From: Octopus vulgaris
Taxonomy: Eukaryota
Assembly (NCBI GenBank): GCA_951406725.2
Contig: OX597831.1
Span: 62,248,001 to 62,312,000, forward strand
DNA length: 64,000 nt
Direction of reading: 5' to 3'
Part shown: positions 41,059 through 62,341 of the stretch, piece after piece
Numbering within the stretch: the stretch's first letter is position 1
Layout of the letters: each line of letters begins with the position of its first letter
Position numbers and translations under genes: made by a program
Notes under the pieces: generated by a model
The model's database searches: none
The model's input: only the letters and a program-made list of their open reading frames with translations
What the model was told of the DNA's origin: nothing

Positions 41059-41202
41059 TTATATACATAGTCTGTGACTATTTTCTCTTTCTCAATAGAC
41101 CGCTGGTGGCAAAAAATTTATATTGAATTTTTTACTACCCTTATATTGATTAATATATATATATATATATACGCGAGAATGAAGCAACAAGAATGGATAG
41201 GT

Positions 41203-41293
41203 TTTTAGTACAATCGTTTCATACAAGGACAGGTTTTATTAAAAGTTGCAAAGATTACAGCATATAAACGTGTCCCGTACTCATCAGCTAAAA
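41203..41293 (-). ncRNA. Mirror copy of the hammerhead at 42149-42239
   Basis: Reverse complement within the left arm. Confidence 0.85.
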
Positions 41294-42148
41294 TACATGT
41301 GAGTTCTCTAGACATCCTAGTGCTTGAGGCTATACTCATGAAGTAATGTAGATAATTAAGTAACATAAACAGATTTCAAAAGTTCATTAAAGTTCTTTTT
41401 CTTTTTCTTCTTTTTCTTTTTTCCCTTCCTTCCCTATTCCTTTTCTTTTTCTTTCTCTTTTTCTCTTTTTTTCTTTTTCTTCTTCTTATTCTCTTTTTCC
41501 TTTTCTCTTCTCTTTGAGTCCCCCTTTCCCCCCCCCTTTTTGCCCCCTCCTCTTTTATTTTATTTTATTTTCTTTCTTTTATTTTCTCTCTTTTCTTCTA
41601 TGCCCCTCCCTTTTCTATTCTATACAGCTCCAGTAAGCCCTTCAGCCTTTAAAAGTTAAATAGCTACAGCCTCTTGTAAATAGCAGTAATGTGATTAATG
41701 TGGCAAATACCTAATCATATAGCAAGAATTGATACCTACCTCATTGTGTTCAACCATTGATAAATTTATCGCCTGTGAATATGAAATTCCTTGAAATTTA
41801 CACCTACACCATTGGAAATTGTGCATCTATACAAAGGATTAATTCACCCTCTCTGTAATGCTAATAAGCAGGAATTGAAACCCACCTCGTTGTAATTAAC
41901 AATGGATAAATTTGCCTTCTGTGAGTATGTAATCCCTCATCATATCTCTGGAAATTCATATGTGCACTATGGATTGGGTCACCTTCTCTGTGATGCTAGT
42001 AAGACTTTTTTAAAATTCTGTGATAAGACTGTACATCATCTTTAAAGAACTTTAATGAACTTTTGAAATCTGTTTATGTTACTTAATTATCTACATTACT
42101 TCATGAGTATAGCCTCAACCACTAGGATGTCTAGAGAACTCACATGTA

Positions 42149-42239
42149 TTTTAGCTGATGAGTACGGGACACGTTTATATGCTGTAATCTTTGCAACTTT
42201 TAATAAAACCTGTCCTTGTATGAAACGATTGTACTAAAA
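42149..42239 (+). ncRNA. Type I hammerhead ribozyme with long stem II loop
   Basis: TTTTAG-CTGATGA-GTACGGGACA..TGTCCTTGTAT-GAA-AC-gatt-GT-A-CTAAAA. Confidence 0.85.
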
Positions 42240-42386
42240 ACCTATCCATTCTTGTTGCTTCATTCTCGCTTATAATCACCCCACATTACTGTATTGTTAA
42301 ATCAGTATAGTTTTTTTTGGTGCATCTAAGTTAGGTACCATATTCAAGTAAATTCATTTAAATTAACTTGAATCTTTATTGCTTTT

Positions 42387-42456
<70 letters not shown>

Positions 42457-49837: not shown

Positions 49838-49957
49838 CTATAAATATCTGTAAATATAAACCATCCGATCTTCTGATTACCTCATTTGTTCTAATATATA
49901 TTACCTGTACATCATCTCCAAACCTTCCAATATCTCTCTCTCTCTCTCTCTCTCTCT

Positions 49958-50490
<533 letters not shown>

Positions 50491-53399: not shown

Positions 53400-53571
53400 G
53401 TAACACCAGACAAATTGTATCCATGGCCAGTACTGCCGATAGTAAACCACAGGTTTCTTCTGTAGAAATTTTGATTAACAACACACGTGGGTGGACGGGG
53501 GAATGCGAGACCTCATTCGTATGTCTTGAATTCGGCAGTACTGGTCATGGATACAATTTGTCTGATGTTAC
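53400..53571. mobile_element. 172-bp MITE-like element with 40-bp TIRs
   Basis: gtaacaccagacaaattgtatccatggccagtactgccga (53400-53439) is inverted at 53532-53571 with 2 mismatches. Confidence 0.75.
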
Positions 53572-53740: not shown

Positions 53741-53844
<104 letters not shown>

Positions 53845-53857
53845 TTATATATGTATG

Positions 53858-53906
<49 letters not shown>

Positions 53907-54041
53907 ATGCAATACTAGAGTATTGCTTTCCAGTAAAGAATAGCCCGTGAGGGAAAAATATACAAAGAAGTAAATATATGGCACAACGAAGTACCCATAT
54001 TTACTGGAAATAACGAACGTAATACTACGACGCTAATGTAT

Positions 54042-54370
54042 CTTTTTAAGACTCCGCCGGTTACGACGACGAGGGTCCCAGCTGATACGATCAACGGAAC
54101 AGCTTGCTCGTGAAATTAACGTGCAAATGGCTGAGCATTCCACAGACACGTGTGCCCTTAACGTAGTTCTCGGGGATAATCAGCGTGACACAGAAAGTGA
54201 CAAGGCTGACCCTTTGAAATACAAGTACAACTCATTTTTGCCAGCTGAGTGGACTGGAGCAACGTGAAATAAAGTGTCTTGCTCAAGGACACAACGCGTC
54301 GCCGGGAATCGAACTCACAACCTTACGATCATGAGCCGAATGCCCTAACCACTAAGCCACGCGCCCTCAC
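54042..54370 (-). mobile_element. SINE family B, full length, 18-bp TSD
   Basis: TSD act(a/g)cgacgctaatgtat at 54024-54041 and 54371-54388; minus-strand A box TGGCTTAGTGG and B box GTTCGATTCC. Confidence 0.93.
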
Positions 54371-54497
54371 ACTGCGACGCTAATGTATAGCTTCACCGCG
54401 TATATACTGGCAAAAATGCGTGAGTGCAACAAACTTGAAAAAAATTGTCTTACCTCCAGGGAGAACATCTGAAAGATGAAATACCCAGAAAAGGATA

Positions 54498-54577
54498 ATG
54501 TGGGACCGGCGTCGGTTTCAGATTTTTCAAGATATGCCTGCACACATATACTTGATCTATCTTCATCAGCCAAACAT
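54498..54577 (-). ncRNA. Type I hammerhead ribozyme, canonical core, GUC site
   Basis: atg.tt.TGG-CTGATGA-AGAT-(tcaag.atatg..catat.cttga)-ATCT-GAA-ACCG-acgc-CGGT-C-CCA.cat. Confidence 0.85.
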
Positions 54578-55109
54578 ATACCACGACAACATTTCAGATG
54601 TTACCACATTAATGCCAATACACTCGACTGAAACGCCGAAACGCTAACAGAACGAGAACGGTGAAGAAGTTTCAATAAATTAGTAATGGAATACTAGAGT
54701 ATTGCTTTCCATTTTTGCTAGTACATACGCAGTGAAGCTATACATTAACGTCGCATTATTACGTTCGCTATTTCCAGTAAATATGGGTACTTCGTTGTGC
54801 CATATATTTACTTCTTTGTATATATATATATATATTAAAAGAAATGAAGTAATCAGAAGATCGGATGGTTCATAGTTACAGATATTTATTTATATATTAC
54901 ATCTTTTACATATATATATCATTCAGATCATATCATTCAGATCATAAGCCTGTTTGGGGTCTGGTTCTGTTCCATTCTTTTCAATGATTTCTGTATTTTT
55001 GTTATCTTCTGTTTGTGGATCTATATATATGTATATATATATATATATGATAAAGACTTTGTTCCAGCATGGCCACAGTCAAATGCCTGAAACAAGTAAA
55101 GGAGTAAAG

Positions 55110-60188: not shown

Positions 60189-62341
60189 CACAACGTAACA
60201 ATTAAAAAAAACTGTTTATTGTATTTTTTCTATTGTTTATCGATCCAATTTTCTCTGCTGATTCCAAAAATGAAATTATTTTTTGTGTATCATCAACAGA
60301 TAAGAAAATATGTCGACTATCAATATTATTATGTATTCGGTATCGTTATAATGTTCTACTACTAAATGTATGTCTAATATTCTCTTTGAGACCAATTACT
60401 ACGTTCTGCTACTTTCAGCATAGCTACTAAAGTATGTAAAAAATATCCAGATACATTTTTCTCTGTGTGTAGATATTCTATTGGAAAAAAGCAGGCATTA
60501 CATAAGATCGTAAAAGGTGCCAAATTGTGGATAACGTACAGACTATTTCGGAATGCCCATGGGTGACTAGAACAAACCATGGGCGCCACATGTGATATGT
60601 GGAAACTGTCGATCTACTCTAGAAGGTACAGGAAGGTCAATGCCTTTTGCCATTCCAAGGGTATGGAGAGAGCCAAAGAACCATCACGATGACTGTTACT
60701 TTTGTATGATCGATTTGACAAAGTACAGAAAGGTGATAGGAAGACAAGCTCTTCAATATCCAGACATACTATCATCTACAGAACCTGTCCCACATGGTGA
60801 CAGTTTACGTGTATCACTACTACCAGAATATATTTCATCTGAAGAGTCAACATGTGGCAGCAGCCAAGAATTGGAGGACGATTTCGTACCAAGAATGACT
60901 TCGGAGTCTCAATTTCCAAATCAAAGTGAGCTAGATGATTTAATCAGGGATCTGGGTCTTACTAAGTCAGGAGCTGAACTTCTTTCATCAAAGTTGAAGG
61001 AATGGAATCTACTGGGGGAAGACTGAAAGACATCTTTGTACTGGAAACACCATGAAGAATTTAAAATTTACTATGAAAATATTAATGATCTGTGTTATTG
61101 TAAAGATGTGATTGGTTTCTTTACTGCTATTGGACTCATGCATGATTCTGCAGAATGAGGACTCTTCATAGATAGCTCAAAGCAGTGTTGCTCCACTATG
61201 GAAATAAATATCCTTCTTTGCCTCTTGCACACCACTCCAATGTCAAAGAATTTTGGGTACAAGTGGGATGTTTGTAGTGATTTCAAGATGCTTGCCTTGT
61301 TACTTGGCTAACAAGGGGGATACACAAAGTATTCATGTTTCCTTTGCTTATGGGACTGCAGAGCTGATGATCATCATTACAAGAGAGTACATTGGCTCCC
61401 ACGAGTGGAACTGCAGTCAGGAATGTTAAATGTTCTCAAACAGCCTCTAGTAGATTCCAACAAAATCTTATTACCCCCACTTCATATCAAACTCGTATTT
61501 GTAAAACAGTCTGTGAAGGCCTTAGATTTTAGAGGAGAAGCTTTTCAAAAAATGTGCCTTATATTTCCAAAGCTATCTGAGGCTAAGATCAAGGGTGACA
61601 TATTTGTTGGGCCCCAAGTATATGCAATGTTAAAGTCGAAGAAACTGCAAAGAGCGATGACAAAAGTTGAAAAAGAAGCTAGGTGTGCATTTCGTGGTGT
61701 AGTTCGTAGATTTCTAAGAAATCACAAGGATCCTAATTACAAACGGCTGGTAGCAAAGCGTATTGAAAACCTCAAGAACATGGTTGTCGTATGTCCTTAA
61801 AGGTTCGTTTCTTGCACGCTCACCTAGATTTTCCCCCGAAAACTTGGGTGATGCCAGTGAGGATCATGGTGAAAGATTTCATCAGGACATCGCAACCGTG
61901 GAAATAAGATACCAAGGACGATGTGATAGTGCTATGATGGGAAATTATATATAGTCTCTAGTTCAGAAGAGATGAATGTATACACCCCAGAAAATCTCGC
62001 TCGTCAAAGCACTTCTCATCTTAAGAAAAGAATTATCAAGGCATTTACAGTGCAGAGTTTTATTGCTTTCGTTTTGTTCTAACTAATAATATACTTCCTA
62101 TATACCTTTCAATATATGAAAAAATACTAAATGTTGTGTAATTATCCTTACAATACTAGACTAGATTGGACCAACAAAGTGCTGTAGAGAAAAGGTACAA
62201 ATATAACGTGCAAATATGAAATTAAGAATAAATAAATAACTATCGATGTTATGTCAAAATGAATATGATTTTAAAATTTAGTGGAAAAGAATGCATATAT
62301 AAACATTAAAAATACGAAGAAAGAAAACATGTTACATTGTG
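60189..62341 (+). mobile_element. Chapaev3-like DNA transposon relic with transposase pseudogene (~60580-61990)
   Basis: MPFAIPRVWREPKNHHDDCYFC, QSELDDLIRDLGL.K..AELL.S.LKEWNLL, RLFIDSSK, DFKM..LLLG.QGGYTKY.CFLCLWD.RA, PPLHIKL, FPKLSEAKIK..IFVGPQ, ENLG..SE.HGERFHQDI...E.RYQG. Ends cacaacgtaaca / tgttacattgtg. Confidence 0.8.

What the first reader, a model, noticed from the sequence alone, without database searches (positions are those of the whole stretch)
53902..54823. Retrozyme-sized monomer with a strong hammerhead, terminal redundancy and an inverted segment
Seen: after removing the SINE and one TSD, the distance between the 31-bp direct repeats is about 432 bp, with one canonical GUC hammerhead inside. 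The inverted segment lacks the SINE, so the SINE came later. Inference: a monomer plus a short terminal overlap is what reverse transcription of a circular or tandem RNA would leave, as proposed for non-LTR retrozymes.
Basis: partly seen in the sequence, partly recalled or inferred. Interest (0 to 1): 0.72.

Follow-up and report, generated by a model that had tools for sequence, protein, structure and literature searches.

The report
Hammerhead-bearing non-coding Penelope-type retroelement copy
A 432-base non-coding repeat unit carrying a self-cutting 'hammerhead' RNA motif sits in a TA microsatellite with the insertion marks of Penelope-like retrotransposons; it is an aged copy of a known kind of animal parasitic repeat (retrozyme-like), and neither cutting nor an RNA circle has been shown.

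Summary
The anatomy is real: 31-bp direct repeats 432 bp apart once a later SINE and its target duplication are removed, one type I GUC hammerhead on the minus strand (0 of 2000 shuffles), and a 114-bp SINE-free inverted arm. The unit is a repeat family in other sequencing runs, and one DNA contig runs head-to-tail through the 31-bp junction, so that repeat is not a locus-specific TSD. The unit folds far better than chance (z -5.6), and family variants tend to keep its pairs (P 0.007).

The hammerhead is not 'strong': helix I has 3 contiguous pairs and the active fold is 2-7.5 kcal/mol disfavoured. A circle is not needed: (TA)n target, 5' inverted truncated copy, one-sided tail and partial tandem are the published insertion signature of Penelope-like elements (PLEs), and two other inserts in this window, one an RT/GIY-YIG Hydra-type PLE, show it too.

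Best reading: an old, single-hammerhead copy of a non-autonomous, PLE-mobilised, retrozyme-like family. Known kind; its modest value is as a sequence-level link between retrozyme-like units and PLE machinery.

The parts
53745..53903 (.). (TA)n microsatellite, left flank (target)
   Evidence: sequence
53902..53957 (-). 56-nt one-sided 3' tail of the long arm (the part beyond where the inverted arm ends)
53902..53932 (-). 31-nt terminal repeat = first 31 nt of the next unit; holds a 7-bp hairpin (53926-53909) ending 7 nt before the insertion end
53927..54010 (-). 3' structured domain: 10-bp helix 54010-54001 with 53936-53927, which spans the unit junction 53933/53932 (119-nt fold z -5.3)
   Evidence: prediction
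53933..54041 (-). 3' part of the 432-nt unit (unit positions 324-432)
54025..54041 (+). SINE target-site duplication, left copy
54042..54371 (-). tRNA-derived SINE, later insertion; very high-copy
54372..54388 (+). SINE target-site duplication, right copy
54389..54711 (-). 5' part of the 432-nt unit (unit positions 1-323); forms a long imperfect rod with the hammerhead at its tip
54465..54479 (-). downstream stretch predicted to pair with the hammerhead core and helix I 5' arm (low pair probability, 0.26-0.32)
   Evidence: prediction
54498..54577 (-). type I hammerhead: core 54569-54563, helix II, GAAA 54519-54516, helix III, predicted cut after C54504, short helix I
   Evidence: family variants
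54606..54613 (-). upstream 8-nt complement of the helix I 3' arm; competes with the active fold
   Evidence: fold strings
54681..54711 (-). 5' copy of the 31-nt repeat; start of the long arm at the inversion junction (2-nt overlap at 54710-54711)
54710..54823 (+). inverted, 5'-truncated duplicate (unit positions about 292-407), no SINE, no hammerhead, ends in the TA tract
54820..54835 (.). (TA)n, right flank
   Evidence: sequence

Best explanation
An aged genomic copy of a non-coding, non-autonomous retroelement family with a ~432-nt unit and one type I hammerhead per unit (retrozyme-like), inserted by the RT/GIY-YIG protein of an autonomous Penelope-like element. SHOWN: unit size, hammerhead motif, repeat-family status, one head-to-tail junction in DNA, PLE-type insertion anatomy, later SINE. 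PREDICTED: rod-like RNA fold that tends to block the hammerhead, and a structured 3' domain across the unit junction. INFERRED: a source locus with head-to-tail units is transcribed; a PLE protein nicks a (TA)n tract and starts reverse transcription inside the RNA at two sites 56 nt apart (unit position 407, and position 31 of the next unit), giving a short inverted arm and a long arm with a tail; the long arm stopped one unit plus 31 nt upstream, which is the 'terminal redundancy'. Because the copy spans an intact GUC site and no end lies at it, the template was uncut tandem RNA (which I think likelier, about 2:1) or a ligated circle, not a cut linear monomer. The hammerhead probably cuts weakly or only as a dimer / with protein help. 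This copy then decayed (arms 94% alike) and was hit by a SINE. A TA-targeting, hammerhead-bearing Hydra-clade PLE is the leading candidate helper, but no sequence link to it was found.
For: Geometry and statistics. Family: every non-SINE bin is covered at summed depth 2.0e4-2.8e5 in both DNA-type runs, against 43-110 for the single long contigs listed (not a copy number); 6 of 24 listed runs hold half or more of the sampled words, under two organism labels. Junction: X1 record 1 runs 54573-54679 then 53901-54010, i.e. 107 nt on one side and 78 nt beyond the repeat on the other. Fold: circular MFE -116.5 vs -88.1 +/- 5.0, z -5.6, 0 of 60 shuffles; 0 of 44 microsatellite-free control windows reach z -5 (lowest -4.3). 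Of 32 distinct variants 8 break a predicted pair against 14.2 expected with matched base changes (P 0.007), 5 are offset by a partner variant (P 0.003). Helix III: a compensatory pair 54508/54513 at equal depth in a single X11 contig, a majority allele at 54512 (38813 of 41852 in X1) that makes helix III palindromic, and a 6-nt deletion that leaves a minimal palindromic helix III, as described for dimer-acting PLE and metazoan hammerheads. PLE signature in print: partial tandems, adjacent inverted 5'-truncated copy, one-sided tail, (TA)n targets (PMC8557442); two internal RT start sites define the tail and uncut RNA is the main substrate in vitro (PMC11167929). Same anatomy in two other inserts here: 4304-7671 (RT plus GIY-YIG, Hydra-type motifs) and 41173-42388.
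Against: No autonomous partner shares sequence with the unit among the two in-window candidates (best local match E 0.02, pyrimidine-rich), and no genome was available to look further. Only one contig proves the tandem junction; it is 85-90% like this copy, and a 31-nt repeat equals the word length of the assembly index, so a chimeric path is not excluded; the X4 joint has only 19 nt on its short side and could be a mere allele; 381 joints were not shown. No contig spans two hammerheads. The tail (56 nt) is longer than the 30-40 bp cited for PLEs. The variant test used only the 26 non-SINE rows shown (89 rows of all kinds not shown) plus the inverted-arm differences, the structure was derived from this copy, and only one compensatory pair is linked on one contig. 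The in vitro PLE work is on a Poseidon-clade element and found no homology between primer and RNA; it is an analogy. Rfam hammerhead models do not hit.
Confidence: 0.7

Rival explanations
1. 5'-truncated end of an autonomous PLE whose 3' region (pLTR/UTR) contains the 432-nt hammerhead unit in tandem; no separate non-autonomous family exists.
For: Identical insertion anatomy is expected; most PLE hammerheads lie in truncated copies, some in opposite strands 100-700 bp apart (PMC4209133); depth is about two- to three-fold higher toward the 3' part of the unit; X11 record 15 has 71 unaligned letters upstream of unit position 18.
Confidence: 0.2
2. Sub-model of the best explanation: tandem transcripts are cut at successive hammerheads, ligated to ~432-nt circles, and the circle is the template; RT ran once round plus 31 nt.
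For: Circles are shown for coral, mussel and axolotl retrozymes (PMC7229834); the unit is highly self-paired, the cut site lies at the tip of a rod so cut ends would be held close, and a 10-bp helix spans the unit junction; the copy spans an intact GUC site.
Against: All of this fits uncut tandem RNA equally; closing the circle adds no predicted stability (circular -116.5, linear forms -121.4 and -122.2); the active hammerhead fold is disfavoured by 2.2-7.5 kcal/mol in all five contexts tried; PLE protein uses unprocessed RNA in vitro.
Confidence: 0.25
3. A MITE or foldback DNA element with 114-bp terminal inverted repeats inserted at TA; the 31-bp repeat is a duplication scar and the hammerhead is incidental.
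For: Inverted repeats and TA flanks are MITE traits (general knowledge); size fits.
Against: The left arm starts 56 nt inside the element, so the repeats are not terminal; both contexts of the 31-nt sequence are deeply covered in other runs and joined head-to-tail; the hammerhead is beyond chance and covaries; a true PLE in the window has the same asymmetric build.
Confidence: 0.03

Closest known systems
Metazoan non-LTR retrozymes (Cervera and de la Pena 2020, PMC7229834; mussel units ~350-390 bp; Li, Clavereau and Pollet 2026 preprint 10.64898/2026.07.22.740005)
   Same: Non-coding unit in the 150-450 bp range, GC under 50% (38%), one type I hammerhead per unit, head-to-tail junction, highly self-paired RNA; monomer copies are a recognised class.
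   Different: One hammerhead at this locus; array and circle not shown; hammerhead predicted blocked, whereas most metazoan circles leave it free (some mussel ones excepted); microsatellite target and inverted arm are not mentioned in PMC7229834's main text (0 hits for 'inverted' and 'microsatellite').
Hydra-clade Penelope-like elements, including Hydra-1_Obim (Craig et al. 2021, PMC8557442)
   Same: (TA)n target, type I hammerhead some 100-250 nt from the 3' end, inverted 5'-truncated copy, one-sided tail.
   Different: No ORF; longer helix III and long helix II extension; none of four short motifs of this unit found in a Hydra entry of that paper's supplement; no similarity to the in-window Hydra 3' end.
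Non-autonomous Chlamys PLEs such as MRC1 (PMC8557442, passage)
   Same: Non-coding, pLTR-forming, head-to-tail, moved by PLE machinery.
   Different: Green algal; that clade mostly lacks hammerheads; they share 3' sequence with an autonomous partner, which is not shown here.
Poseidon PLE of Anolis (PAc; Frangieh et al. 2024, PMC11167929)
   Same: Model for two internal RT start sites in a stem-loop, tail between them, AT-rich target, weak protein-assisted hammerhead.
   Different: Autonomous; its ORF starts in hammerhead helix II and its RT start lies within the ORF.

Membership tests
non-LTR retrozyme | type I hammerhead motif | tested here: met
   covarying helix III; no Rfam hit
non-LTR retrozyme | unit of about 150-450 bp, GC below 50% | tested here: met
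   432 nt, 38% GC
non-LTR retrozyme | no protein-coding capacity | tested here: met
   longest stop-free frame 112 aa, P 0.06; no Atlas hit for 70 aa of it
non-LTR retrozyme | tandem units with two or more complete hammerheads at the locus ('active' by the 2026 preprint) | tested here: not met
   one hammerhead; 1.07 units plus an inverted arm without hammerhead
non-LTR retrozyme | family occurs as tandem arrays elsewhere | tested here: inconclusive
   one DNA contig crosses the head-to-tail junction; none spans two hammerheads
non-LTR retrozyme | highly self-paired monomer RNA | tested here: met
   z -5.6; beyond all 44 control windows; prediction only
non-LTR retrozyme | self-cleavage of the transcript | not testable with these tools
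   folding predicts a weak or blocked monomer
non-LTR retrozyme | circular monomer RNA in vivo | not testable with these tools
   only assembled contigs were on offer
non-LTR retrozyme | no PBS or PPT | not tested
   no dedicated search made
Penelope-like element insertion | microsatellite (TA)n target without clear TSD | tested here: met
Penelope-like element insertion | inverted 5'-truncated copy adjoining the 5' end | tested here: met
   54710-54823
Penelope-like element insertion | tail at one end only (30-40 bp typical) | tested here: met
   56 nt here, about 61 and 120 nt in the two other window inserts; longer than typical
Penelope-like element insertion | partial tandem (pLTR-like terminal repeat) | tested here: met
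   31-nt repeat; junction contig
autonomous PLE | ORF with telomerase-like RT and GIY-YIG endonuclease | tested here: not met
non-autonomous PLE | 3' similarity to an autonomous partner | tested here: inconclusive
   none to the two in-window candidates; whole genome not held
MITE | inverted repeats at both termini | tested here: not met
   left arm starts 56 nt inside

The most novel reading that the evidence does not exclude
A dispersed animal retrozyme family, abundant in several related species, that makes ~432-nt circles in which the hammerhead is blocked by self-pairing (as in plant retrozymes and viroids) and whose genomic copies carry the full PLE-specific integration signature. That would be direct sequence evidence that PLE RT/GIY-YIG proteins retrotranspose retrozyme RNA in trans, rather than retrozymes only expanding locally from PLE ends, and would give a short natural substrate with a defined junction-spanning 3' structure for studying PLE priming.
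Probability: 0.25. Interest if true: 0.55.

Novelty: new member of a known kind. Interest (0 to 1): 0.35.

Why it matters
PLE mobilisation of animal retrozymes is a standing hypothesis resting on shared hammerheads, co-occurrence and pLTR similarity (PMC7229834; 2026 preprint, which calls the mechanism unresolved). A non-coding hammerhead unit bearing the PLE-only marks (microsatellite target, inverted arm, two end points) supports that hypothesis from insertion anatomy and makes it testable by cataloguing copy ends in one genome. Otherwise this is one decayed repeat copy among many, with no sign of a host function.

Tried and rejected
Rfam at gathering and E-value thresholds: no hammerhead family hit. 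No whole genome is held, so copy ends, arrays and a partner could not be surveyed. Exact-motif scans of metagenome contigs (two patterns) and viral contigs (one) found 0 loci. Expression: no RNA holder listed; X11 and X13 are RNA only by guess and are contigs; they cover 29 and 28 of 30 bins, one X13 contig runs 54462-54711 across the GUC site uncut, and no head-to-tail joint is listed for them; none of this counts for or against expression or circles. Fourteen runs holding under half of the words (two of them laid, X11 and X13) were not used as evidence of range. No SINE-skipping joint is among the 15 joints shown (381 hidden). Pfam found nothing for four window frames, including the PLE protein. 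A 112-aa stop-free frame across the junction was considered and dropped (P 0.06, no Atlas hit). TSD and MITE readings rejected. Earlier-findings look-ups by sequence, by a long word list and by place were empty. One search was in the wrong frame and is not used.

Full report
1. What is in the sequence. The element lies between two (TA)n tracts. Its sense is the minus strand. Read that way it has an inverted arm (54823-54710), then a long arm from 54711 to 53902. The long arm begins and ends with the same 31 nt (30 of 31 identical, starts 779 bp apart). A tRNA-derived SINE (54042-54371) sits in it with a 17-bp target duplication spaced 347 bp, which leaves a unit of 432 nt, 38% GC. The inverted arm matches unit positions 294-407 over 114 nt with 7 mismatches and no SINE, so the SINE came later. 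The long arm runs 56 nt beyond the point where the inverted arm ends in TA, so the inverted repeats are not terminal.

2. The hammerhead. A type I motif lies at 54577-54498 with core, helix II, GAAA, helix III and GUC. My descriptor finds no hit in 2000 shuffles of the region or 30 shuffles of the window; Rfam does not report it. It is not 'strong'. Helix I has three contiguous pairs, then a bulge. The hammerhead-constrained ensemble is 2.2, 3.0, 7.5, 7.1 and 4.2 kcal/mol above the free ensemble in five contexts, and an upstream 8-mer (54613-54606) can capture the 3' arm of helix I. These are secondary-structure predictions without tertiary contacts. Contigs of related copies show a majority allele at 54512 that makes helix III a perfect palindrome, a compensatory pair at 54508/54513 (equal depth, one X11 contig) and a 6-nt deletion leaving a minimal palindromic helix III. 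Palindromic helix III is the mark of hammerheads that cut as dimers (PMC4209133 passages; PMC6765202 passages).

3. It is a family, and the 31-bp repeat belongs to it. Of 24 runs listed, 20 hold part of 54378-54712 and 6 hold half or more of the 32 sampled words, under two organism labels. I laid four runs on 53896-54740 at 85% likeness. In the two DNA-type runs all 30 bins are covered; non-SINE bins have summed depth 2.0e4-2.8e5, the single long contigs listed have 43-110, and the SINE bins reach 1e6-1e7. This shows a repeat family but is not a copy number. Both contexts of the 31-nt sequence are deeply covered. A joint 54679 to 53901 ('goes back 779') is listed for X1 (2 contigs) and X4 (1 contig). 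X1 record 1 carries 107 nt on one side and 78 nt beyond the repeat on the other: a head-to-tail junction in DNA. Limits: it is a single contig, 85-90% like this copy; the repeat is as long as the index word, so a chimeric path is possible; the X4 joint has 19 nt on its short side and proves nothing; 381 joints were hidden; no contig spans two hammerheads.

4. The unit looks like a structured RNA. Folded as a circle the sense unit gives -116.5 kcal/mol against -88.1 +/- 5.0 for 60 shuffles (z -5.6; antisense z -3.1). None of the 44 microsatellite-free 432-nt control windows (of 148 tiles) reaches z -5; three reach -3 (12 shuffles each). The fold is a long rod with the hammerhead at its tip, plus a 3' domain in which a 10-bp helix spans the unit junction and a 7-bp hairpin ends 7 nt before the insertion end. 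Of 32 distinct variants (26 non-SINE rows shown plus the inverted-arm differences, one shared) 8 break a predicted pair against 14.2 expected (P 0.007) and 5 are offset by a partner variant (P 0.003). The list is incomplete (89 rows hidden), the structure comes from this copy, and only one offset pair is linked. Circular closure adds no stability over linear forms. No coding trace was found.

5. [quoted passage not shown] Craig et al. 2021 (PMC8557442; abstract, passages, section 11 and parts of the supplement seen) describe PLE insertions as 5'-truncated partial tandems, often with an inverted truncated copy at the 5' end and a 30-40-bp tail at one end; Hydra-clade PLEs target (TA)n and carry hammerheads. 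Frangieh et al. 2024 (PMC11167929; parts 1-2 of 4 read) show for an Anolis Poseidon element that RT starts at two internal sites in a stem-loop, that the tail is the sequence between them, that AT-rich DNA is nicked, and that uncut RNA is the main substrate. This window holds two more inserts of the same build. One, 4304-7671, is a 3.3-kb palindrome (99.5%) with a tail of about 61 nt and a hammerhead variant in each arm; its 5'-truncated ORF has RT- and GIY-YIG-family neighbours in the Atlas (Pfam itself found nothing), the CxCx5C, CxxC and CxH motifs of the Hydra clade, and by eye long stretches like Hydra-1_Obim. The other, 41173-42388, has 223-nt arms (99.6%), two opposed hammerheads and a tail of about 120 nt. 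Neither shares sequence with the unit. The host is an animal, probably an octopus; that rests on the Hydra-1_Obim likeness and recalled genome texture and is not established.

6. Mechanism. Best reading (0.7): a non-autonomous unit transcribed from head-to-tail source loci and inserted by a PLE protein. Two RT start sites 56 nt apart give the two arms; the long arm covers one unit plus 31 nt. The copy spans an intact GUC site and no end lies there, so the template was uncut tandem RNA or a ligated circle. The main rival (0.2) is the truncated end of an autonomous PLE with a tandem hammerhead unit in its 3' region; only a genome survey can exclude it. A MITE or TSD reading is rejected (0.03). 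The circle figure is a share within the best reading, not an addition to it. This copy is old (arms 94% alike, against 99.5% in the other two inserts), SINE-interrupted and has a single hammerhead, so it cannot itself release a monomer.

7. Relation to what is known. It works like a metazoan non-LTR retrozyme (PMC7229834; parts 2-4 of 6 and a term search seen; supplement not seen) and meets the size, GC, hammerhead, non-coding and self-pairing criteria. It fails the two-hammerhead criterion at this locus, and arrays, cleavage and circles are unshown, so I file it as a monomer-type copy of a retrozyme-like, PLE-dependent family. Those authors name PLEs as the likely helpers. A 2026 preprint (10.64898/2026.07.22.740005; parts 1-3 of 5 read; supplements closed) argues that animal retrozymes derive from PLE ends; its sample has no mollusc. 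Non-autonomous PLEs are already described in Chlamydomonas. Searches for octopus with retrozyme, and octopus with Penelope and hammerhead, listed no description of such a family (other searches); the giant squid paper only counts 235 hammerhead loci (PMC6962438 passages). The library is partial, and Repbase, Dfam and the unseen supplements may already hold this family. An earlier, unchecked note of this scan (e1-7810660) describes another non-coding unit with the same PLE pattern in TA tracts, which suggests the pattern is not rare.

8. Verdict. Observation confirmed; interpretation partly supported. New member of a known kind, interest 0.35. The boldest open reading, a self-blocked circle-forming retrozyme moved in trans by PLE proteins, has probability about 0.25 and would merit 0.55.

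Noticed in passing
window 4304-7671: Hydra-clade PLE inserted as a 3.3-kb near-perfect palindrome (99.5%) in (TA)n, 5'-truncated RT plus GIY-YIG ORF in each arm, one-sided tail of about 61 nt, hammerhead with a variant core at 7578 (+) and 4458 (-). Looks recent; candidate helper clade.
   Followed up: partly
window 41173-42388: Second hammerhead insert in (TA)n: 223-nt inverted arms 99.6% alike, opposed hammerheads at 42155 (+) and 41287 (-), structured tail of about 120 nt (z -4.6), internal degenerate ~146-nt tandem; no clear ORF.
   Followed up: partly
window 53400-53571: Small MITE-like element with 40-bp terminal inverted repeats (95%) just left of the finding.
   Followed up: no
window 54828-54900 and 49869-49901: Short TA-flanked repeat directly right of the finding, with a related inverted copy near 49.9 kb; possibly another truncated element end.
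   Followed up: no
window 50163-50213 and 50372-50422: Two 51-nt direct repeats whose minus strand resembles a decayed minimal hammerhead end (by eye, recalled motif).
   Followed up: no
window 54600-54389 and onward through the junction (minus strand): Stop-free 112-codon frame that crosses the unit junction and ends inside the 31-nt tail; P 0.06 in shuffles, no Atlas hit for its first 70 aa.
   Followed up: yes
window 3345-3989 and 60571-61800: Decayed coding fragments that look like a LINE 3' end and a DNA-transposon-like protein (by eye); no Pfam hit for the three frames scanned.
   Followed up: no
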